Origin: a virus
Lineage: Duplodnaviria > Heunggongvirae > Uroviricota > Caudoviricetes
Length of the DNA: 64,000 nucleotides
IMG/VR virus record: IMGVR_UViG_3300023082_000008
Coordinates: 1-64,000 of that record
Strand: one strand, 5' to 3'
Of the stretch, positions 1,730-39,862 are shown piece by piece. The translations under genes and the position numbers were made by a program. Position 1 is the first letter of the stretch, and each line of letters opens with the position of its first letter. Below the pieces are notes generated by a model. The model was given only the letters and a program-made list of their open reading frames with translations. It ran no database searches and had not been told where the DNA came from.

Positions 1730-1989
1730 CTCTGGATTAGTGTAGATTGCACTCCGGTGTTAACCGGGAGCGTTGGGAGAATGGCCCAGCATCTTGAACC
1801 ACTTACCCGGCTTCGTCGAAATACACGGGGCCGGGTACCAAAACTTTCGTTAGCATAAAGCAATGCGGCCCCTTCGGTGGGGTAGATCGAGATTAGCGCT
1901 CTTGACGAAGGACCAACACCTAGTAGTGTACGTTGCACTCTCGGGGCAAACCGAGGAGGCCGTGGTTAAACTCCCGGCTGGGTGGCCAT

Positions 1990-2061
1990 GGGACGGTAGT
2001 ACAATGGTAAGTGCAGTTCTCTGATACGGAACAAACCAAGGTTCAATTCCTTGTCGTCCTA
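1990..2061 (+). tRNA. tRNA-Ile (anticodon GAT)
   Basis: Acceptor GGGACGG pairs with TCGTCCT (two G-U pairs). Anticodon arm GTTCT-CTGATAC-GGAAC. T arm CAAGG-TTCAATT-CCTTG. Confidence 0.75.
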
Positions 2062-6357: not shown

Positions 6358-6585
6358 ATGGCTGTAGCAAAGCGTAACGAGAAGCAAAAGGCCATTGGTC
6401 AGGCGTCGTACGCCCGTGCCAAGGCACGCAAGGCCAAGAACATCGAGGAACAAGACCTCAAGACCCGCACGAATGACGTGTTCCGTGCCAAGGGCGAGCG
6501 CACTCCGTATCAGGAGCGTAAGCGCGAGAAGTACCTCGCCCGTCTGGCGAAGAAGTACGGCTCGGAGAGTGTTGACAAGGACTAA
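6358..6585 (+). CDS. small basic hypothetical protein
   Basis: 75-aa Lys/Arg-rich ORF. Its 3' end contains the promoter for the next gene. Confidence 0.5.
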   Translation: MAVAKRNEKQKAIGQASYARAKARKAKNIEEQDLKTRTNDVFRAKGERTPYQERKREKYLARLAKKYGSESVDKD

Positions 6586-6600
6586 GGTCCCTGCTAGACT
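6572..6600 (+). promoter_or_regulatory. promoter TTGACA-17-TAGACT
   Basis: TTGACA 6572-6577, TAGACT 6595-6600. Upstream of the LPXTG-protein gene. Confidence 0.55.
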
Positions 6601-6628
6601 GGTGCTCCGACCTATAGAGGGAGTCTAT

Positions 6629-7828
6629 ATGAAGAAGATTATCCTGCTGGTCATCGCAATGGTTGTGATGACACTCAGCATGGCTACCGGGGCATCGGCC
6701 ACAGAGCAGTCCACTGCTCTTCCTGCCAACGGTGTCACGAGCATTACCCAGAATGGTGACAACTTCACCATCAACCTTGCCAGCGCAGACGCCAGCGAGG
6801 TAAAGTACATCAAGCCCGGTAACACGGTTTTGTGTTCCGAGCATGAGGGCAAGCCAAAGAATGGTCACCCGCTGTGCGACAAGACCAGTTACACGATTAC
6901 GTCCAATGCGGACTGTGTCATGTTTCAGGTTGACTGGACGGACAACAAGCACAACAGTTCCGATCCTGTCAAGTGTCGTGACAAGACTGAGCCGCCAGCA
7001 GAGCCTCCCTTCAAGGATTATGAAGTTCAGGCATGCTGGAAGGTAGATAACTGGAAGGTGGGCGACGACGACTGGCCACAGACTCGTGTCGATTGCCCTA
7101 TCCCCGACAAGGCAACTACTTGTGAGGATGAGCGTTACCAGTTCGACAAGTACTGGATTCGTGACAAGGCAGATGAGGACAAGTTCAATAACCTCAAGAC
7201 GCTAGAGAATTCCGGTTCTGACGGGTCACTAGAGCCGCACGACTACTACGTCAAGACGGTACCCGGAGATAAGACCAAGTGCGCGCCGGTAGACGAAGAG
7301 ATTCCTGTACCCGCGATGCCACAGATTCTTGATCCTTGTGGTCCCGGTAATGCAAGTTGGGTCGTTCCTGCCGACACCGATAAGATCAATTGGGAAATTA
7401 CTAATGGTCCTCTTGGAGAAAAGAGCCTAACCGCTACTGCCAAGGACGGTTACACATTCCCCAACAAGGAAAAGGTTAAGGGATTCGGTAATGCACCGGA
7501 AACTAATCTTGATGCCTGCCCGGTGGTAGAGCCTCCTGTTGTAGTACCGCCGGTTGTTGAGCCTCCTGTGCCCACGCCTCCGGTAGTTACACCGCCCCCA
7601 GTATTGCCGCCAGTGACGGACAACCCGCCAATTGTGGACGAGCCTGAGGGAGAGATTGGTACGCCAATCAGCGAGCGTCGTGACAGCACGCCAGCCTCGC
7701 CGGTATATGACGAGCCAGTCTACAAGGCACTGCCTAATACAGGTGGCCCACAGGCTTGGTACGTCCTCGCAGGACTAGCCCTAGTTGCAGCCGGTACCAC
7801 GGTTGTGCTAAGATTGAGCAAGAAGTAA
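6629..7828 (+). CDS. secreted LPXTG cell-wall-anchored protein with a Pro-rich PPVV repeat stalk
   Basis: N-terminal signal peptide MKKIILLVIAMVVMTLSMATGASA. C-terminal LPNTGG, then a hydrophobic segment, then RLSKK, which is a sortase sorting signal. AGAGGGA ribosome-binding site before the ATG at 6629. Confidence 0.75.
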   Translation: MKKIILLVIAMVVMTLSMATGASATEQSTALPANGVTSITQNGDNFTINLASADASEVKYIKPGNTVLCSEHEGKPKNGHPLCDKTSYTITSNADCVMFQVDWTDNKHNSSDPVKCRDKTEPPAEPPFKDYEVQACWKVDNWKVGDDDWPQTRVDCPIPDKATTCEDERYQFDKYWIRDKADEDKFNNLKTLENSGSDGSLEPHDYYVKTVPGDKTKCAPVDEEIPVPAMPQILDPCGPGNASWVVPADTDKINWEITNGPLGEKSLTATAKDGYTFPNKEKVKGFGNAPETNLDACPVVEPPVVVPPVVEPPVPTPPVVTPPPVLPPVTDNPPIVDEPEGEIGTPISERRDSTPASPVYDEPVYKALPNTGGPQAWYVLAGLALVAAGTTVVLRLSKK

Positions 7829-8230: not shown

Positions 8231-8452
8231 ATGGATAATTTAAGATGACTGCCGGTCTATGCTCCACGTAGGGTGCACCTACAAAGTCCTTGAGGCTTGA
8301 TACGGAATGGGGAAGCGCGGTAGTTGTCAACTATAACTGAATAGGTCGGGTGCTATCAACAGCACGGTGGGAATTATCCCTAGGGGAAACCTTATACTCT
8401 GTGTTTGCAAAATGGACGATCTGGTACACAAGTCAGGTCACCCGACCAACAT

Positions 8453-8522
8453 GCCCCACGTGCCGGATGCACAATTGAGCCTTCTAATCTCTATTTGCCG
8501 AGTTCGACTCTCGGGTGGGGTA
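8453..8522 (+). tRNA. tRNA with atypical anticodon arm (possibly TCT, Arg); CCA encoded at 8523-8525
   Basis: Acceptor GCCCCAC pairs with GTGGGGT. T arm CCGAG-TTCGACT-CTCGG. Discriminator A then CCA. Only 70 nt long; the anticodon stem is ambiguous. Confidence 0.5.
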
Positions 8523-8602
8523 CCAGAAATCACAGAGTTAATGACTTTGGTCAAATAGCCTAATTAACTATTTGATTAGCGTATGTGAGATTTCGTTAAT
8601 TT

Positions 8603-15127: not shown

Positions 15128-15512
15128 AGAACTTGTACCGCGCAGACCCTGACGATATGAGTCGATCACGGAAGCGCAAGCAATGTAGGCGCGGTACAAC
15201 CACGGGGATGATTTGGTATTCGACTCCGTCAATTAAATATAGATACGCAGCCAGTGTTACGGCGTTTACCAGACACTTAAAAGAGGTACGCCAAAAAATA
15301 AATGACGACTATGATGTTGTCGCAGGGGCAGAGGCTATCCTAGCCAACGCTTCGCTCGTTACAGTTTGATCCTTAGGGATTAAAGGCGGTAACGATAAGG
15401 TGGCTACCACCTTACTAACCAAAACGTAGCACCAACAGTTTATCCGTATCTGCTAAACGGATTGGTGGAATCGTTGACCGGCTTAAGCAACCGTTCAGCC
15501 CCAGTAATACCG

Positions 15513-15588
15513 GGAGCGGTACTCAATGGCTGTAATTCGTACTACAGGAAAATGACGGAACACCGGGGTTCGACTCCCCGCATCTCCA
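15513..15588 (+). pseudogene. tRNA-like element with canonical T arm but no foldable anticodon arm (probable pseudo-tRNA)
   Basis: CGGGG-TTCGACT-CCCCG then CATCTCC-A. The best 5' partner, GGAGCGG, has two mismatches. No X5-L7-X5' anticodon arm was found. Confidence 0.35.
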
Positions 15589-15605
15589 CAACAGACAGGA
15601 AACTC

Positions 15606-17111: not shown

Positions 17112-17950
17112 GGTGGAACACCAAGCGGGCCGAATGTTGGCCGATACCATAGGATTCGTCCTCGGAGTCGTAGCACCGGCGCTTGGTTCATAATTTAAAA
17201 CAGGCATGGCTGATAAGTGCGGGTGACCGTACAGAAAGGCTAGATGACTTCTAGTCGCCAGTGACGCAAGTCGCGGGTAAACCATGCAATCTGCAACTAC
17301 CAAGAGTCTTGAAAGAGGTTCTAACCCGGTGAGCAGGGAACGGCCAGCGCCTAGCGGTGAGGTCAACGGTGTACCCAAGCCAAGGTTTCCATACGCAAAT
17401 CGGCAAAGTAGGACAGAAGGATATGCTAGTCCAAGGCTGCAACCGAGGGCGGTATCCATGTTCAGGAGAAAGTGGACTGCGGAGTTCATGAGTACTCGTT
17501 ACGATTGTCAGTAGCCGCAAGCGAACGCATATTGATGGTGTGAGACATTCTTTAGCCCAAAAGGCTACGGACTCTCAGGGAAACCACATCGTCTGTCGGA
17601 ACCCTTTGGGGCCGGGCTAGCGCCCCATCCAACCATTTGAAGGTTATCAAATATAAAAGCAAAAGTGTTTCCCCGCTGTAAGCGTAAGTGTCCAAATGCT
17701 AGACCGCAAGGAATCTAGCCTGTACCGCGCCGCAAGCAACGTACAGTCTGTATGAAAGTAGTTCAACCTAGAGGCTTGCTACCTTTGGGCCAAACCAAAT
17801 CAGCAGAGTAGGTTACAGCGTAAAAGAATGGTAGACTCAAACTACCGGGCATGGTAACTAGTGCGGGAACGTACTGGAAAAGTTGGGAAACAATAATCCA
17901 ACGAAAGGTTACCAGCCGGGGAGAGTATTCTCATCTCCCCGGTACAACAT
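17112..17950 (+). ncRNA. candidate large structured non-coding RNA (no convincing ORF)
   Basis: No ORF has a ribosome-binding site or is operon-consistent. Many hairpins, e.g. CCGGGGAGAGTATTCTCATCTCCCCGG, GGGGCCGGGCTAGCGCCCC and CCAAGCG...CGCTTGG. It is promoter-driven and ends at tRNA-Lys. Confidence 0.4.
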
Positions 17951-18022
17951 GGCTCTCAGACCATCCGGTTTGGTACCTCGCTCTTAACGAGAATGTATAG
18001 GGTTCGATTCCCTAGGGAGCCA
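17951..18022 (+). tRNA. tRNA-Lys (anticodon CTT)
   Basis: Acceptor GGCTCTC pairs with GGGAGCC. D stem ACCA/TGGT. Anticodon loop CTCTTAA. T arm TAGGG-TTCGATT-CCCTA. Confidence 0.75.
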
Positions 18023-23917: not shown

Positions 23918-24673
23918 ATGCAGATGTACGAAGTGGGCGGTTGCGTCCGAGACGAACTGATGGGCCACAAGTCCAGCGATATTGACTTTACCGTTGAGTT
24001 GTCTGGAAATGAAGATGCTTGGCACACGCCTCTCGGTACCGACCCCTTCCTTGTGATGGTGGCAGAACTTGAGCGTCGTGGATTTCAGATTTTTGCCACT
24101 ACGCCTCACTTTTTTGTGGCCAAGGGCAAGTTCCCCAAGACTCCTGAGTTTGCTCATTACGGTGGGCTCGTGGCTGACTTCGTGCTGGCCCGCAAAGAAT
24201 CCACTTACAGTGACGGTCGTCGTCCCGACGTAGTTGCCGTTGGCAATTTGTACGATGACCTCGCCCGTCGTGACTTCACGATGAATGCCATTGCCAAGGC
24301 AGAGGACGGCACGCTGATCGACCCGTTTGGTGGCCAGGCAGCGATTGAGGGCCGGTTTATTCAGACCGTGGGTGACCCTCACCTTCGTTTTCAGGAGGAC
24401 GCTCTGCGGGCCGTGAGGGCTCTTAGGTTCAGCGTGACAAAGGGCTTCCGCATCGCGGACGGTACGAAGTTTGCCATGGAGTCCATGGCTGTGCTTCACG
24501 CTATCAACACGAACATCTCTGACGAGCGCATCATGGCAGAACTATCTAAGATGTTCCGATTCGATACCATTGATTCGCTTGCTGCACTCAACAAGTTTCC
24601 GCAGTTGACTCGCGCCATGTTTTCTGGTAAGGTCAACCTTGACGCAACGATGAAGACCAAGAACAGGGGTTGA
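23918..24673 (+). CDS. cca: tRNA nucleotidyltransferase (CCA-adding enzyme), head domain, class II Pol-beta type
   Basis: N-terminal YEVGGCVRDELMGHKSSDIDFTV matches the GGxVRD...DxD signature of class II CCA-adding and poly(A) polymerases. RRD and ERI motifs are also present. Confidence 0.75.
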   Translation: MQMYEVGGCVRDELMGHKSSDIDFTVELSGNEDAWHTPLGTDPFLVMVAELERRGFQIFATTPHFFVAKGKFPKTPEFAHYGGLVADFVLARKESTYSDGRRPDVVAVGNLYDDLARRDFTMNAIAKAEDGTLIDPFGGQAAIEGRFIQTVGDPHLRFQEDALRAVRALRFSVTKGFRIADGTKFAMESMAVLHAINTNISDERIMAELSKMFRFDTIDSLAALNKFPQLTRAMFSGKVNLDATMKTKNRG

Positions 24674-26623: not shown

Positions 26624-26695
26624 GTTACATTCGACGAATTGGTTAAGTCACATGAGTAATATCTAGAGATGCAGGTTCGAGTCCTGCATGTGACG
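26624..26695 (+). pseudogene. tRNA-shaped gene with perfect acceptor, D and T arms but no foldable anticodon arm (pseudo-tRNA or atypical)
   Basis: Acceptor GTTACAT pairs with ATGTGAC 7 of 7. T arm GCAGG-TTCGAGT-CCTGC. The anticodon region CATGAGTAATATCTAGAGAT does not fold. Confidence 0.4.
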
Positions 26696-30820: not shown

Positions 30821-31085
30821 CTAAATATTTTGATCAATACGGACTATCGCGCACACGAGTAACACAACATGTCGTGTGGGAGGAACCTCCGGACTGCTAC
30901 GACAGAGCCGTGTAGTTTTGCTTTGACAAGCGCTACTAAGCCCAATTTAAAAAACAGGGTGCAGGCATATGGCAGCAATCTCAAGCAGTATGAGCGACTG
31001 TCGTCGTGATGAAATACGGGTAGAGAGCAAAGGTGGATGATAGTCTTAAATGACAGAATCCGGGGTATGTGATTGGTCAATTCAT

Positions 31086-34565: not shown

Positions 34566-34720
34566 GTCTCTTCCTGTGGCTGCTGATTTATGCGGCAGTA
34601 GTCACACCCTTCGCCATTTTGATGGTGCCCAAGGTTCACGTATGGACAGCACCGCTGTATTTTGTGCTGATCTTTGCCTCATGTTATGCAGTGTCTTTTG
34701 TGCCCGGTGTGTCTGGTTGA
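34562..34720 (+). CDS. small membrane protein
   Basis: 52-aa ORF with two hydrophobic segments. Confidence 0.35.
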   Translation: MSLFLWLLIYAAVVTPFAILMVPKVHVWTAPLYFVLIFASCYAVSFVPGVSG

Positions 34721-34746
34721 CATACTGCTAGCAGAGATGCTACACT
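34717..34746 (+). promoter_or_regulatory. promoter TTGACA-18-TACACT driving the Thr/Gln tRNA array
   Basis: TTGACA 34717-34722, TACACT 34741-34746. An 11-bp stem hairpin at 34751-34802 forms the leader. Confidence 0.5.
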
Positions 34747-34802
34747 GTACTTACCGGCCCGCAATGATTTGGGCAACCTCTCTACGCGGGTCGGTATTCA
34801 GT

Positions 34803-34873
34803 GCCTCTTTCGCTTAATGGTAAAGCCCGTACCTTGTAAGTACGAGCCGTCAGTTCGATTCTGACAAGAGGCC
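34803..34873 (+). tRNA. tRNA-Thr (anticodon TGT)
   Basis: Acceptor GCCTCTT pairs with AAGAGGC. Anticodon arm CGTAC-CTTGTAA-GTACG. T arm GTCAG-TTCGATT-CTGAC. Confidence 0.8.
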
Positions 34874-34911
34874 CGTAGTCGGAAACAAAGGTTCAATTCC
34901 TTTACACTACT
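34874..34911 (+). other. T-arm/acceptor minihelix (tRNA 3'-half-like) abutting tRNA-Thr, copy 1
   Basis: CGTAGTCGGAAACA-AAGG-TTCAATT-CCTT-TACACTAC. GTAGT pairs with ACTAC. A second copy of the same motif lies at 35341. Confidence 0.45.
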
Positions 34912-35137
34912 GCTCCAAGTGGTCGTGTTAGTTTAATGGCAAAACACCGGCGTTAATTTTGGTAGTAATGTCAGCGCGGTACTTAATGATAGGCCGTGGC
35001 GGTTACTACCGAATAACAAGGACGAATGTCTGAAAGCAACAATAGCCCAATTAGAGGCAGCCTGACAATGGAGTGTCCCACCAATAAGCGTTTAAAGCGG
35101 TGGGTAGTGGTGGTGAAAACCCATCTTGTTGCCAAAT

Positions 35138-35209
35138 GGTTCCTTAGTATCAACGGTAGAACGATTGTTTCGTAATCAATTAGTGTCAGTTCGACTCTGA
35201 CAGGAACCT
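35138..35209 (+). tRNA. tRNA-Thr (anticodon CGT)
   Basis: Acceptor GGTTCCT pairs with AGGAACC. Anticodon arm ATTGT-TTCGTAA-TCAAT. T arm GTCAG-TTCGACT-CTGAC. Confidence 0.65.
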
Positions 35210-35268
35210 CTGGGACTTAATCAGTCTCGCGGGTAAGGTTGGTTGATTACCTTCCAAATCCCGTACCT

Positions 35269-35340
35269 GCCTCAATGGCGCAGTGGTAGCGCACATCCTT
35301 GGTAAGGATGAGGTCATGGGTTCAATCCCCATTTGAGGCT
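35269..35340 (+). tRNA. tRNA-Thr (anticodon GGT)
   Basis: Acceptor GCCTCAA pairs with TTGAGGC. D stem GCGC/GCGC. Anticodon arm CATCC-TTGGTAA-GGATG. T arm ATGGG-TTCAATC-CCCAT. Confidence 0.85.
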
Positions 35341-35379
35341 CGTAGTCGGAAATATAAGGTTCGATTCCTTATGAATGCC
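35341..35379 (+). other. T-arm minihelix, copy 2, followed by a duplicated tRNA 5'-half-like fragment
   Basis: CGTAGTCGGAAATAT-AAGG-TTCGATT-CCTT-ATGAATGC. The downstream TAGTTTAATGGTAAAACACCGGCGTTA matches 34931-34955. Confidence 0.4.
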
Positions 35380-35423
35380 TCATATAAAGGCCTAGTTTAA
35401 TGGTAAAACACCGGCGTTACCAA

Positions 35424-35494: not shown

Positions 35495-35499
35495 CCATT

Positions 35500-35534
35500 G
35501 GCCTTGATCCTCGCGGGTCAGGGCCATTTCTTTT
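35500..35534 (+). terminator. rho-independent terminator closing the tRNA array
   Basis: GGCCTTGA-TCCTCGCGGG-TCAGGGCC stem followed by ATTTCTTTT. Confidence 0.65.
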
Positions 35535-35549
35535 ACACATAGGAGATAA

Positions 35550-36209
35550 ATGAGCGACTTTACAGATGAAGAACTACGCCGTCTAGGCGAGGAATATCTC
35601 AAAGAGCATCCTGACCTAGTTGAGCGATACTTGGCTGAAAAGGCCAAGGAACGAGCAGATCAGACTGAGACCACAGAAGTACAGGATGCGGCTCTGGTGG
35701 CTTCGGAAAATGAAGAGGTCCAGCCGGTAGCAGAAGATAATCCTGAGCCCGAGAAGACCGGTCTAGAGGCTTACAAGGCCAAGTCAGACGAACTGATCGC
35801 CATTGTCTACCCCGTCTCATGGCCAAGTCCAACAGAGGACGTTCCGAATCCTCACAGCACCTTGATCTTCCTCGGGCCGGTAGAAGATGCTACCTTTACC
35901 AAGGATGACCTTAAGGCTGTACTAAAGGTATTCATTTGGGAGCCTTTCGACGCAGCCCTTGGTGAGGTTAAGATGTTCACAGACGATGACGGTAACGACA
36001 CAATTCCTGTTGTTACCCTGCTGGGTGAGCAGTTGTATGTAAACCGTCAGACGCTTGAGGAAGAACTTGGAAAGCATGGTATCAAGGATGCTTCTGAACA
36101 TGAGTACAGTCCTCACATTACCGTCGATCCCGTGTCCATGCAGTCCGTTCCTCTCATGAGCGTTCGTCTGGGCAAGCCTCAAATCTGGTGGGGCACTGAT
36201 CGTGGCTGA
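35550..36209 (+). CDS. 2H phosphoesterase (LigT / cyclic phosphodiesterase-like) with acidic N-terminal extension
   Basis: Two H-x-T/S-x motifs (PHSTLIFLG and SPHITVDP) with the spacing typical of 2',3'-cyclic phosphodiesterase / 2'-5' RNA ligase family. 219 aa. Confidence 0.55.
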   Translation: MSDFTDEELRRLGEEYLKEHPDLVERYLAEKAKERADQTETTEVQDAALVASENEEVQPVAEDNPEPEKTGLEAYKAKSDELIAIVYPVSWPSPTEDVPNPHSTLIFLGPVEDATFTKDDLKAVLKVFIWEPFDAALGEVKMFTDDDGNDTIPVVTLLGEQLYVNRQTLEEELGKHGIKDASEHEYSPHITVDPVSMQSVPLMSVRLGKPQIWWGTDRG

Positions 36210-38742: not shown

Positions 38743-38922
38743 ATGAGAAACATTAAGGGTAATTCCCTCTTCGCTAATGCGTACGTGCGAGACGGTGAGC
38801 ACACGTACTACAAGGACGCAATGCTCATTGCAGTTCTTTCACACACTCACGGTGACAGCCGTGAAGGTGCGCAGGGCAAGATTCTGCGCAAGATGCTAGA
38901 CGACGTTAACCTAGATGGTTGA
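38743..38922 (+). CDS. small hypothetical protein (59 aa)
   Basis: ORF MRNIKGNSLFANAYVRDGEHTYY... with stop overlapping the next start. Confidence 0.4.
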   Translation: MRNIKGNSLFANAYVRDGEHTYYKDAMLIAVLSHTHGDSREGAQGKILRKMLDDVNLDG

Positions 38923-39862
38923 CGCATACGGGCATGAACTAGACTTCAATGGCTGGACTGATGAGGTTTGGGCCATTCATGTCAAGCAACAGAAAAATTT
39001 GGCATTGCTTATAGGCATGCCATTCGAAGAGCCTGAGAGGCCGGTACAAGAGGTGACAAATCCCGAGGTAATGATCATTGGTGACACCCATGGCGATCTA
39101 AATGAGTACATGAAGTTGCTCAAAATCGCCAAGAGCGAGGGTGTCACGAAGATTTTTCAGGCTGGCGACTGCGGTCTATTTCCTGCATTCCCCGGCTACG
39201 CCCAGTGGCTTGATGCTATTCAGGAGGAAAGTTCTTCACTTGGTATCAAGAATTACTGGATTCGTGGAAACCATGATGACCCTGACGAGTGGCAGCACGT
39301 GATTGATCGTCATGCCACCACCAATGGCTGGGGCACGCTACGCTCCACTATCTTCCTCGCACCCCGCGTACACTACTTCAAGCACAATGGCGTAAGATTC
39401 CTGGGAGTGGGCGGCGCGGTAAGCATTGACAAGGTGAGTCGTCTGGCCCGTGAGCGCAAGCCCGGTACTGAGTGGTGGCCTAACGAAATCATCACGGTTG
39501 AGGACGTAGCCGCCGTTGAGCGCCGTCACATCGACGTTCTTATTACTCACGAGTGTAGCAACTACACCCATTTCCATGGCCGTGTGAAAAACGATTCTGA
39601 CAGTGAGAGCAACCGTCGTCGTCTTGACGAGGTGCTTAAGCGCAGCACACCGGACTGGCATTTCCACGGTCACATGCACACTAAGTACGATTGGGACAAC
39701 TACATGGTTCACGAGATGAATCATAACACCCGCACAATCGGACTTGAGTGCAATCAGGACGCTATGTGGCACAACGGTCCGAGCACCGGCAATAACTGGG
39801 GTATCTTTGATACCAACACGTTGACGTGGCGCTGGCAGGGTAAGTTCAACGATCCAAAGTAA
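38915..39862 (+). CDS. calcineurin-like metallophosphoesterase
   Basis: Phosphoesterase motifs GDTHGD, GDCG and GNHD in canonical order. 315 aa. Confidence 0.75.
   Translation: MVDAYGHELDFNGWTDEVWAIHVKQQKNLALLIGMPFEEPERPVQEVTNPEVMIIGDTHGDLNEYMKLLKIAKSEGVTKIFQAGDCGLFPAFPGYAQWLDAIQEESSSLGIKNYWIRGNHDDPDEWQHVIDRHATTNGWGTLRSTIFLAPRVHYFKHNGVRFLGVGGAVSIDKVSRLARERKPGTEWWPNEIITVEDVAAVERRHIDVLITHECSNYTHFHGRVKNDSDSESNRRRLDEVLKRSTPDWHFHGHMHTKYDWDNYMVHEMNHNTRTIGLECNQDAMWHNGPSTGNNWGIFDTNTLTWRWQGKFNDPK

What the first reader, a model, noticed from the sequence alone, without database searches (positions are those of the whole stretch)
34874..35423. Duplicated module of T-arm minihelix plus tRNA 5'-half-like fragment following two different tRNA-Thr genes
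Immediately after tRNA-Thr(TGT) and again after tRNA-Thr(GGT) comes the nearly identical string CGTAGTCGGAAA-A-AAGG-TTC(A/G)ATT-CCTT. This is a tRNA T arm with a short acceptor-like helix and no body. About 20-30 nt further on comes a conserved (T)AGTTTAATGG(C/T)AAAACACCGGCGTTA, a tRNA-like D arm plus the start of an anticodon stem that never completes. A third body-less T-arm/acceptor hairpin abuts tRNA-Ile at 2062-2098. I tested a circularly permuted tRNA for copy 1 (3' half before 5' half): the acceptor strands pair 6 of 7 but no anticodon arm forms, so I do not call it. These may be processing signals, since minihelices are substrates for RNase P, tRNase Z and the CCA enzyme. Alternatively they may be decoys for host tRNA-targeting nucleases, or scars of tRNA-gene duplication.
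Basis: seen in the sequence. Interest (0 to 1): 0.55.

Follow-up and report, generated by a model that had tools for sequence, protein, structure and literature searches.

The report
Inside-out tRNA mimics behind phage tRNAs
The two "fragments" seen after each tRNA are the two halves of one ~80-base RNA that folds like a tRNA turned inside out (acceptor end closed, anticodon loop cut open), a conserved tRNA mimic of the kind known from bacterial YrlA Y RNAs but here fused directly behind phage tRNA genes and without the usual Ro60 protein partner.

Summary
The repeated strings are real and non-random. Each "T-arm minihelix" plus "5'-half fragment" is a single 78-82 nt module: M1 34874-34955, M2 35341-35419, M3 2062-2139.

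Each module is a circularly permuted tRNA cloverleaf. Between them lie a variable loop, a canonical T arm, a closed acceptor-like hairpin and a D arm.

The break falls between anticodon nucleotides 35 and 36. M3, un-permuted in silico, is 83% identical to an actinophage tRNA-Asp(GUC).

Related actinophage contigs keep a module after tRNA-Thr(UGU) in 4 of 4 lineages. All seven modules pair fully in the closing stem (35/35 cells) and in the T stem, with many compensatory changes. This indicates a selected RNA fold, not a scar.

The other two positions are variable: the post-Thr(GGU) module is present in 2 of 4 lineages, the post-Ile module in 1 of 2.

The architecture matches the tRNA-like domain of YrlA Y RNAs, described as resembling circularly permuted tRNAs with closed acceptor stems. 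The modules lack the Ro60-binding stem, no Ro60 gene was found, and they do not score with Rfam YrlA.

No RNA ligase was found, and several acceptor hairpins are poor or tetraloop-capped. A decoding permuted tRNA is therefore unlikely. Verdict: a new variant of a known kind; its function is inferred.

The parts
34717..34746 (+). sigma-70-type promoter (TTGACA-18-TACACT) of the tRNA unit that holds M1 and M2
   Evidence: the same TTGACA...TAnACT type precedes other tRNAs
34803..34873 (+). tRNA-Thr(UGU); its discriminator base (34873) directly abuts module M1
   Evidence: Rfam tRNA 61.3 bits
34874..34955 (+). Module M1, a permuted tRNA-like unit. 5' tail CGTA 34874-77. Closing-stem strand GTCGG 34878-82. 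Variable loop 34883-86. T arm 34887-903. Closed acceptor-like hairpin 34904-28 (ACACTAC.../...GTCGTGT, 11 layers, CCA triloop). U8A9 34929-30. D arm 34931-45. A26 34946. Closing-stem strand CCGGC 34947-51. 3' tail GTTA 34952-55.
   Evidence: 79.9 bits
35269..35340 (+). tRNA-Thr(GGU); its discriminator (35340) abuts module M2
   Evidence: 70.5 bits
35341..35419 (+). Module M2. CGTA 35341-44. GTCGG 35345-49. Variable loop 35350-54. T arm 35355-71. Short (4-bp) middle hairpin within 35372-92. TA 35393-94. D arm 35395-409. A 35410. CCGGC 35411-15. GTTA 35416-19. Four more bases (CCAA) follow, then tRNA-Gln.
   Evidence: 72.2 bits
35424..35497 (+). tRNA-Gln(UUG) with an unusual T loop (ATCGAAA) and an encoded CCA. 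Processing of its 5' end would set the 3' end of M2.
   Evidence: ARAGORN only; not reported by Rfam; sequence
35499..35536 (+). intrinsic terminator (12-bp stem plus T run) that closes the unit
1990..2061 (+). tRNA-Ile(GAU); its discriminator (2061) abuts module M3
   Evidence: 59 bits
2062..2139 (+). Module M3, a permuted tRNA-Asp-like unit. CGA 2062-64. GCAGG 2065-69. Variable loop 2070-73. T arm 2074-90. Acceptor-like hairpin 2091-2112 (9 layers, 2 mismatches, GAGA tetraloop). TA 2113-14. D arm 2115-29. A 2130. CCTGC 2131-35. GTGT 2136-39.
   Evidence: ARAGORN calls the un-permuted form tRNA-Asp gtc; 71.6 bits; 59/71 identical to Streptomyces phage Manuel tRNA-Asp

Best explanation
Each module is an ~80-nt RNA domain derived from a tRNA (tRNA-Asp type) by circular permutation.

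Gene order: anticodon nt 36-38, the 3' strand of the anticodon stem, the variable loop, the T arm, the acceptor 3' strand, a short cap, the acceptor 5' strand, U8/A9, the D arm, the 5' strand of the anticodon stem, then anticodon-loop nt 32-35.

Fold: a tRNA cloverleaf with an intact D-loop/T-loop elbow, a closed acceptor end and an open anticodon end.

Shown or read from sequence:
- The module lies on the same strand as the phage tRNAs, and M1 and M2 sit inside one promoter-to-terminator unit predicted by consensus scans.
- Its first base follows the discriminator of a bona fide tRNA.

Inferred:
- Co-transcription with the tRNAs.
- Ordinary tRNA 3'-end processing of the upstream tRNA (RNase Z-type cleavage) releases the module's 5' end.
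- Where a tRNA follows (M2, and L011_X in a relative), RNase P sets the 3' end. The product would be a discrete small RNA.
- It acts as a structural tRNA mimic, as the effector domain of YrlA Y RNAs does. It would present a tRNA elbow and body to tRNA-recognising proteins as a decoy or scaffold, rather than being aminoacylated or decoding.
For: Fold and covariation:
- RNAfold gives a closing stem plus three hairpins for all three modules.
- A manual structural alignment of 7 modules from 4 phage lineages gives 35/35 paired cells in the closing stem, with up to 4 pair types per position: CCGGC:GTCGG, CCTGC:GCAGG, TTTCC:GGGAA, CCCTC:GAGGG. The T stem is also 35/35 paired.
- The count of structure pairs: 96.7% of cells paired against 72% in shuffles, 9 of 13 pairs changed on both sides, and all slid registers at or below 63%.
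- G-U pairs make the fold specific to the + strand, i.e. to the RNA.
- The T loop (TTCRANY) and the D-loop GG are kept in all 7 modules. The 15:48 pair reads G:C or A:U in most (read from sequence).

Origin from tRNA:
- Un-permuted in silico, 5 of 7 modules are called tRNAs by ARAGORN.
- M3 is 59/71 identical to Streptomyces phage Manuel tRNA-Asp. That tRNA's loop CTGTCGA corresponds to GTGT|CGA at M3's two ends.

Conservation and context:
- A module follows tRNA-Thr(UGU) in all 4 lineages.
- A predicted promoter and terminator bracket Thr-M1-Thr-Thr-M2-Gln.

Precedent:
- The published YrlA architecture is the same: V, T, closed acceptor stem-loop, D, then a stem. [quoted passage not shown]
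- The Rfam YrlA consensus shows the same order.

Against a decoding tRNA:
- Acceptor hairpins are closed, irregular and of varied length, with a GAGA cap in M3 and only 4 bp in M2.
Against: - No expression or processing data exist. The 3' end is undefined for M1 and M3.
- The Rfam YrlA model does not hit any module at E<=10.
- My own model scores the Bxz1 YrlA no better than tRNA-dimer junctions.
- No Ro60/TROVE gene was seen in about 75 of 126 kb of the genome or in the relatives' loci. The known YrlA partner is therefore absent and the binding partner is unknown.
- Modules are dispensable at two of three positions in relatives.
- M1, M2 and L008_Y are mosaic. M1 shares its ends with M2 and its middle with L008_Y. 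Gene conversion therefore contributes to the similarity, and some 'covariation' could be whole-helix replacement.
Confidence: 0.5

Rival explanations
1. Cis-acting processing or stability element of the polycistronic tRNA transcript. The tRNA-shaped trailer would recruit or position tRNA-processing enzymes for the upstream tRNA, whose CCA is not encoded. Or it would act as a 5'/3' structural cap that protects neighbouring RNA, for example the mRNA that starts 30 nt after M3.
For: - Every module in this phage group starts at the base after a tRNA discriminator, with a conserved C-(G/C)-(U)-A.
- In L013 this tail reads CCA.
- The phage encodes its own CCA-adding enzyme and an RNase P RNA-like element.
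- M3 lies 30 nt upstream of an ORF start.
Against: - 33 of the 36 ARAGORN-called tRNAs in the window do without such a trailer.
- A simple hairpin would suffice for protection, yet the full D/T elbow and closing stem are conserved.
- What lies downstream differs: a structured spacer (M1), a tRNA (M2) and an ORF (M3).
- tRNA-Ile(GAU) and tRNA-Thr(GGU) in relatives lack the module.
Confidence: 0.2
2. Genuine circularly permuted tRNA genes. After the upstream tRNA is cut off, the 5'-phosphate at C36 is ligated to a 3'-OH at nt 35. This gives a circular intermediate with an intact 7-nt anticodon loop (GUC Asp in M3). The acceptor loop is then opened by RNase P and RNase Z and CCA is added, as in Cyanidioschyzon merolae.
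For: - The break falls exactly between nt 35 and 36, and both loop halves are retained.
- G32, U33, C36 and A38 are invariant in 7 of 7 modules.
- Joining gives 7-nt loops in 4 of 7 modules, and ARAGORN then calls Asp(gtc) or Val(tac).
- M3 has an Asp-like body and a G at the discriminator position (sequence).
- A 2H/LigT-like '2'-5' RNA ligase superfamily' gene and a CCA-adding enzyme are encoded nearby.
- M. smegmatis YrlA is cut by RNase P and receives CCA.
Against: - No RNA ligase (Rnl or RtcB) was found in Pfam or PHROG scans of neighbours or in the gene tables covering about 75 kb.
- The LigT-like gene tracks tRNA-Gln, not the modules (L015).
- Acceptor helices are poor or capped. M2 has none, M3 has 2 mismatches plus a GAGA cap, and L011_X and L013_X have 5 bp.
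- M1, M2 and L008_Y would have 8-nt loops.
- The 'anticodon' at the orthologous post-Thr position switches between UAC, GUC and an 8-nt loop among relatives.
- The phage already has Asp(GUC) and Val(UAC) tRNAs.
- No BHB motif or conserved 3' cleavage site is present.
Confidence: 0.12
3. Non-functional relics of tRNA-gene rearrangement (tandem duplication of a tRNA-Asp gene followed by loss of the outer halves). They would be kept similar only by gene conversion with other tRNA-like sequences.
For: - A clear tRNA-Asp origin.
- Presence/absence polymorphism at two positions.
- Mosaic similarity among M1, M2 and L008_Y.
- M2's middle hairpin looks degraded.
- tRNA-Ile followed by tRNA-Asp is a natural gene order in phage Manuel.
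Against: - The orthologous post-Thr(UGU) modules L008_X and L011_X share most of their sequence, yet they differ at 4 of 5 closing-stem pairs while staying fully paired. Their T stems also changed compensatorily.
- Elbow nucleotides are invariant in all 7 modules.
- The module is retained after tRNA-Thr(UGU) in 4 of 4 lineages, whose neighbouring protein is only 63-68% identical.
Confidence: 0.08

Closest known systems
YrlA (Y RNA-like A; Rfam RF02553), tRNA-like effector domain of bacterial and mycobacteriophage Y RNAs
   Same: - Same 5'-to-3' order: closing stem, variable region, T arm, closed acceptor-like stem-loop of variable length, UA, D arm, closing stem.
- tRNA tertiary-contact nucleotides are kept.
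- The literature describes it as resembling a circularly permuted tRNA with a closed acceptor stem and no anticodon loop, possibly evolved from a dimeric tRNA.
- It also occurs in actinophages rich in tRNAs. The example checked here is Bxz1, whose YrlA lies next to the Ro-like gp220.
   Different: - The modules have only a 5-6 bp closing stem. They lack the long Ro60-binding stem and the GNCGAAN0-1G motif.
- They sit directly on the 3' end of a tRNA.
- No Ro60/TROVE gene is nearby.
- There are three copies per genome.
- The D/T stem sequences are not the near-invariant YrlA ones.
- There is no Rfam YrlA hit at E<=10.
- They retain both halves of the anticodon loop as tails.
Circularly permuted tRNA genes of Cyanidioschyzon merolae and some archaea (Soma et al. 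2007; cited)
   Same: - The 3' half is encoded before the 5' half.
- The acceptor strands are joined by a short linker.
- The anticodon stem is formed by the transcript's two ends.
   Different: - Those are matured through a BHB motif, a splicing endonuclease and a ligase to functional tRNAs.
- Here there is no BHB and no ligase was found. The acceptor helices are imperfect or tetraloop-capped. The setting is a bacteriophage, and the leader is itself a complete tRNA.
Dimeric (tandem) tRNA genes in phage tRNA arrays
   Same: A T arm followed about 25-45 nt later by a D arm. Such junctions are the main false positives of my models, scoring up to 44 bits in tRNA-rich IMG/VR contigs.
   Different: - In a dimer, the T arm belongs to a complete upstream tRNA and the D arm to a complete downstream tRNA.
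- Here neither half has its partner in normal order.
- The two halves pair with each other in both the anticodon and acceptor stems.
Two-piece (permuted) tmRNA genes
   Same: The gene is permuted so that the T arm and acceptor 3' strand precede the acceptor 5' strand.
   Different: - No tag reading frame or pseudoknots.
- ARAGORN, which detects permuted tmRNA, reports none here.
- The phage has an ordinary one-piece tmRNA at 15204-15591.

Membership tests
YrlA / bacterial Y RNA (RF02553) | tRNA-like domain in the order stem, (V), T arm, closed acceptor-like stem-loop, D arm, stem | tested here: met
   compared with the Rfam YrlA consensus line and the descriptions
YrlA / bacterial Y RNA (RF02553) | Long stem formed by the 5' and 3' ends that carries the Ro60-binding site (GNCGAAN0-1G motif near the 5' end) | tested here: not met
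   The 5' side is occupied by a complete tRNA up to 3-4 nt before the 5-bp closing stem. No extended pairing is possible and there is no motif match.
YrlA / bacterial Y RNA (RF02553) | Encoded within about 4 kb of, and on the same strand as, a Ro60/Rsr (TROVE) gene | tested here: not met
   No TROVE in Pfam scans of neighbours or in the gene tables of L018, L019, L144, L008, L011 and L016. The 477-aa ORF is an LPNTG surface protein. About 50 kb of the genome was not seen.
YrlA / bacterial Y RNA (RF02553) | Scores with the Rfam covariance model (gathering score 69 bits) | tested here: not met
   No YrlA match at E<=10 on the window or on L008 9040-9545. For comparison, the Bxz1 YrlA scores 32.5 bits, and units in L063 and L078 score 34.7 and 29.7 bits.
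Circularly permuted tRNA genes (functional) | 3' half upstream of 5' half; the two halves reconstitute all four tRNA helices | tested here: met
Circularly permuted tRNA genes (functional) | Regular 7-bp acceptor stem with a removable linker, so that RNase P and RNase Z can create free ends | tested here: inconclusive
   6 of 7 pairs in M1 and L008_Y, but the helix continues 4 more pairs to a triloop. M3 has 5 of 7 plus a GAGA cap. M2 has none. L011_X and L013_X have 5 bp.
Circularly permuted tRNA genes (functional) | End-joining machinery (BHB motif plus endonuclease and ligase, or another RNA ligase) | tested here: not met
   No BHB-like leader/trailer pairing, since the leader is a tRNA. No Rnl or RtcB. 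There is only a 2H/LigT-like protein. The genome was only partly seen.
Circularly permuted tRNA genes (functional) | A mature, aminoacylatable tRNA is produced | not testable with these tools
   needs RNA-seq or Northern blots and acylation assays
Canonical tRNA gene | Recognised in genomic order by ARAGORN or the Rfam tRNA model | tested here: not met
   No call over 34874-34955, 35341-35419 or 2062-2139
Two-piece tmRNA | Tag reading frame and pseudoknots next to the permuted acceptor/T-arm domain | tested here: not met
   ARAGORN and Rfam report none at these sites

The most novel reading that the evidence does not exclude
These are the first bacteriophage examples of circularly permuted tRNA genes whose RNA ends are actually joined. 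The upstream tRNA's 3' processing creates a 5'-phosphate at C36. This end is sealed to nt 35 by a host or phage ligase. The product is either a covalently closed, exonuclease-proof circular tRNA mimic or, after the acceptor cap is opened, a working tRNA-Asp or tRNA-Val whose production depends on RNA-repair enzymes.
Probability: 0.1. Interest if true: 0.9.

Novelty: new variant of a known kind. Interest (0 to 1): 0.6.

Why it matters
YrlA-type tRNA mimics are known only as the effector half of Ro60-bound Y RNAs, and what that half binds is still unknown. Here the same inside-out tRNA fold occurs on its own, in three copies. It is fused to tRNA 3' ends in an actinophage that also carries more than 36 tRNAs, a tmRNA, a GOLLD RNA, an RNase P RNA-like element and a CCA-adding enzyme.

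This has three consequences:
- The tRNA-like domain appears to have a Ro60-independent function.
- M3 is a nearly unmodified permuted tRNA-Asp. It is a concrete intermediate for the proposed origin of YrlA from tRNA genes.
- The modules form a small, genetically tractable system in which to ask what a tRNA body without a CCA end or anticodon is used for during infection.

There is also a practical point. Such units are invisible to tRNA finders and look like 'fragments' or tRNA dimers. Similar units turned up in unrelated IMG/VR phage contigs.

Tried and rejected
1. Intron-split or tandem interrupted tRNA genes (5' half of M1 joined to 3' half of M2 across 385 nt). Rejected. The acceptor strands GTCGTGT and TGAATGC do not pair. 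In L008 the 5' half after Thr(UGU) (TTTCC) does not match the next 3' half (GTCGG). Halves pair only within a module.

2. Permuted group I intron-exon arrangement. Rejected from sequence. There is no G before C36, position 35 is A in most modules, and the upstream sequence is a tRNA.

3. Two-piece tmRNA. Rejected.

4. Ro60 partner. The 477-aa ORF 6395-7828 and its relative next to a vWA protein were tested. It is an LPNTG-anchored surface protein.

5. RNA ligase among neighbours. Pfam and PHROG scans found none. The hits were endonuclease VII-like, RIIB-like and 2H/LigT-like.

6. Link between the LigT-like gene and the modules. The gene follows tRNA-Gln even in L015, which has no modules. Adjacency is therefore probably not specific.

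7. Exact-pattern scans:
- Viral contigs with the 25-mer: 0 hits.
- Metagenome contigs with a loose 24-mer: 7 hits, six chance matches and one ordinary tRNA gene (L001).
- A protein-based search of viral contigs with the LigT-like protein: nothing.

8. BLASTN of modules against 50,697 phage records. Only half-length hits to ordinary tRNAs were found. No record covered at least 80% of a module.

9. Covariance models R1 and R2. These were useful inside this phage group. They cannot separate modules from tRNA-Asp-to-tRNA junctions elsewhere, and R2 gives L011_X only 17 bits.

10. Short contigs for P0003 and P0005. They do not reach the tRNA region.
Full report
**Observation.**
The window carries 36 ARAGORN tRNAs, all on the + strand.
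- CGTAGTCGGAAA occurs at 34874 and 35341.
- The 27-mer TAGTTTAATGGYAAAACACCGGCGTTA occurs at 34929 and 35393, with none expected in shuffles.
- By the Rfam tRNA alignments, the tRNA-Thr genes end at 34873 and 35340. The repeats therefore begin at the very next base.
- A third T arm outside any tRNA lies at 2074-2090, just after tRNA-Ile(GAU), which ends at 2061.

**Anatomy.**
Read as one unit, each module has this layout: tail C-G-(U)-A; 5-nt strand; 4-5-nt loop; canonical T arm (5 bp, loop TTCRAWY); middle hairpin; U-A; D arm with GG in its loop; one base; 5-nt strand; tail G-U-K-W.
- The two 5-nt strands are complementary: GTCGG/CCGGC in M1 and M2, GCAGG/CCTGC in M3.
- RNAfold closes a four-way junction with exactly this stem in all three modules.
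- This is a tRNA cloverleaf in circularly permuted order. The closing stem is the anticodon stem. The middle hairpin is the acceptor stem closed by a cap. The anticodon loop is the open end.
In fact only the loop is missing.
- A motif scan and covariance model R1 find exactly three modules in the window. They score 72-80 bits, and the next best hit is a 20-bit tRNA-dimer junction.

**Relatives.**
No known phage is close at the DNA level. The protein encoded just downstream belongs to the 2H/LigT-like '2'-5' RNA ligase superfamily. It has 8 homologues in 5.8 billion proteins.

Their contigs give four lineages of a ~120-126-kb, WhiB-encoding actinophage group. All four have the same unit: Thr(UGU)-X-Thr(CGU)-Thr(GGU)-Y-Gln(UUG).
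- Position X holds a module in all four lineages.
- Position Y holds one in the window and in L008. L011 and L013 have only a plain hairpin there.
- The site after tRNA-Ile(GAU) is empty in L016.
- L008_Y is the near-twin of window M1, including its middle hairpin. M1 shares its two ends with M2. The modules therefore exchange sequence.

**Selection on the fold.**
In a hand-made structural alignment of the seven distinct modules:
- The closing stem is paired in 35/35 cells, with four different sequences: CCGGC:GTCGG, CCTGC:GCAGG, TTTCC:GGGAA, CCCTC:GAGGG.
- The T stem is paired in 35/35 cells, with up to five pair types per position.
- On the MAFFT alignment, the count of structure pairs gives 96.7% paired cells against 72% in shuffles (0 of 500 reach the observed value). 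Nine of 13 pairs changed on both sides. No slid register exceeds 63%.
- L008_X and L011_X are obvious orthologues. Yet they differ at 4 of 5 closing-stem pairs without losing a pair.
- Several pairs are G-U, so the structure exists only on the + strand, the strand of the tRNA genes.
- The middle hairpin folds in every module but varies: 11 layers with a triloop in M1, 9 layers with two mismatches and a GAGA tetraloop in M3, 4 bp in M2, and 5-9 layers elsewhere.

**Origin.**
BLASTN of M3 against phage genomes hits the 3' halves of tRNA-Asp genes.
- Rotated back to normal order, M3 is 59/71 identical to Streptomyces phage Manuel tRNA-Asp across both halves.
- Manuel's anticodon loop CTGTCGA corresponds to M3's 3' tail GTGT plus its 5' tail CGA.
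- The gene is therefore broken precisely between anticodon nt 35 and 36, and C36 is joined to the discriminator of the upstream tRNA.
- In Manuel, tRNA-Asp directly follows tRNA-Ile. M3 occupies that same place here.
- ARAGORN of the 7 rotated modules as tRNAs: Asp(gtc), Val(tac), or with an odd loop (8 nt in M1).
- G32, U33, C36 and A38 are invariant in the seven modules.

**Transcription context.**
A consensus promoter (34717-34746) and a strong terminator (35499-35526 plus a T run) bracket Thr-M1-Thr-Thr-M2-Gln.
- M2 is flanked on both sides by tRNAs, and so is L011_X.
- Ordinary tRNA processing would therefore release these two as ~85-nt RNAs with 3-8-nt tails. This is an inference; no expression data are available here.

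**Comparison with known systems.**
The architecture is that of the tRNA-like effector domain of YrlA Y RNAs: V, T, a closed acceptor stem-loop of variable length, then D, inside a stem.
- That domain has been crystallised as a close tRNA mimic.
- In Mycobacterium phage Bxz1, the Rfam YrlA model finds such a domain 190 nt upstream of the Ro-like gp220.

Membership of the YrlA family fails on its defining features.
- There is no room for the Ro60-binding stem, because a tRNA sits 3-4 nt upstream.
- No Ro60/TROVE gene was found in the window ORFs tested or in about 75 kb of gene tables of this genome and its relatives.
- There is no Rfam YrlA hit at E<=10.
- R1 scores the Bxz1 YrlA like any tRNA-dimer junction: 16.7 bits, E 0.11.

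So the modules work like the YrlA tRNA-like domain, and perhaps share its kind of origin, but they are not members of that family.

**Is it a real permuted tRNA gene?**
For:
- An exact 35|36 break with both loop halves retained.
- A 7-nt loop on joining in 4 of 7 modules.
- An Asp-like body and a G at the discriminator position in M3.
- A CCA-adding enzyme and a 2H/LigT-like protein encoded nearby.

Against:
- No RNA ligase was found.
- The LigT-like gene follows tRNA-Gln even where no module exists.
- Acceptor helices are imperfect, absent or tetraloop-capped.
- M1, M2 and L008_Y would have 8-nt loops.
- The 'anticodon' at the orthologous X site changes identity between relatives.
- The phage already has Asp(GUC) and Val(UAC) tRNAs.

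I keep this as the novel reading at about 0.1.

**Broader occurrence.**
A loose pattern scan of IMG/VR returned mostly tandem tRNAs. It also returned three units that are not tRNA dimers:
- L063 8868-8983. Rfam YrlA scores 34.7 bits over the full model, and a DUF2828/DUF7788 protein lies about 6 kb away.
- L078 1985-2062. Rfam YrlA scores 29.7 bits, and a 7-bp acceptor hairpin is capped by UUCG.
- L101 3926-4010. It has a perfect 7-bp acceptor, an encoded T-CCA and an 11-nt linker, and scores 40.8 bits with the window-only model R2.

Orphan inside-out tRNA units may therefore be under-recognised in phage tRNA arrays. I did not characterise these three further.

**Verdict.**
- It is a conserved, structure-selected, tRNA-Asp-derived permuted tRNA mimic fused to tRNA 3' ends.
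- Its closest known relative in kind is the YrlA tRNA-like domain, from which it differs in lacking the Ro module and partner.
- The function, a trans-acting tRNA-body mimic versus a cis processing or stability element, is inferred and not shown.

Noticed in passing
window 17533-17937 (+), 17951-18022 (+): GOLLD RNA (Rfam 187.7 bits, above the gathering score of 150). It is followed 13 nt later by a tRNA-like gene that ARAGORN missed (Rfam tRNA 39.7 bits; anticodon loop CTCTTAA).
   Followed up: no
window 15204-15591 (+): Phage-encoded one-piece tmRNA (Rfam 66.2 bits, gathering score 47). ARAGORN did not report it.
   Followed up: no
window 30831-31083 (+): Short (~253 nt) match to bacterial RNase P class A RNA over the whole model (58 bits, below the gathering score of 100; E 3.9e-15). 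It ends 2 nt before tRNA-Leu(CAA). This may be a minimised phage RNase P RNA or a mimic.
   Followed up: no
window 26624-26695 (+); L008 2517-2590: Extra tRNA-like gene before tRNA-Glu(CTC) (Rfam tRNA 37.4 bits, not called by ARAGORN). At the same position in relative L008, ARAGORN calls 'tRNA-Pyl(cta)', that is a CUA (amber-reading) anticodon.
   Followed up: partly
window 8452-8523 (+): tRNA-like sequence with acceptor GCCCCAC/GTGGGGT and a good T arm, but an odd D arm and a ~9-nt anticodon-loop region (CCTTCTAAT). Neither ARAGORN nor Rfam calls it.
   Followed up: no
window 1731-1989 (+); L016 9626-9887: A ~260-nt non-coding stretch between tRNA-Glu(TTC) and tRNA-Ile(GAT) is conserved between the window and a relative whose flanking protein is only 39% identical. 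It has no Rfam hit and may be another structured RNA.
   Followed up: no
window 34752-34802 (+); L008 8915-8973; L011 9130-9185; L013 140-191: Conserved 5' leader hairpin (U)ACCGGCC...GGCCGGUA between the promoter and tRNA-Thr(UGU) in all four lineages. In the window its arms (ACCGGC / GTCGG) read the same as the closing stem of M1 and M2.
   Followed up: partly
window 34964-35012 (+); L008 9134-9184: Conserved stem-loop GGTAGTAATGTCAGCGCGGTACTTAATGATAGGCCGTGGCGGTTACTACC directly downstream of the post-Thr(UGU) module in the window and in L008.
   Followed up: no
window 6629-7828 (+) (ORF listed as 6395-7828): Phage-encoded protein with an N-terminal signal-like segment and a C-terminal LPNTG motif followed by a hydrophobic tail, i.e. 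sortase-anchor type. It is 75% identical to a protein in the relative.
   Followed up: partly
window 35550-36209, 23918-24673, 38915-39862 (+): RNA-end-metabolism genes: a 2H/LigT-like phosphoesterase immediately after the tRNA-Gln terminator (syntenic with tRNA-Gln in all relatives), a CCA-adding/poly(A) polymerase-family enzyme, and a metallophosphoesterase.
   Followed up: partly
L063 8868-8983 (-), L078 1985-2062 (+), L101 3926-4010 (-): Unrelated IMG/VR phage contigs carry permuted tRNA-like units that are not tRNA dimers. Two give sub-threshold Rfam YrlA hits. L101 has a perfect 7-bp acceptor, an encoded CCA and an 11-nt linker, and looks most like a true permuted tRNA.
   Followed up: partly
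L064 2440-2620 (+): After tRNA-Pro lies an apparent tRNA whose 5' half (AAGGGGTAGTTTAATTGGTAAAATGCTACG) and 3' half (...GGGTTCGAGTCCCAGCCCCTT) are separated by an insertion of roughly 70-80 nt in the anticodon-loop region.
   Followed up: no
whole window versus ENA contig k141_1069415: The window spans the ends of the 126,220-bp assembled contig. Window 2169 corresponds to about contig 122,980 and window 35550 to about contig 30,282. The genome assembles as a circle or with terminal redundancy.
   Followed up: no
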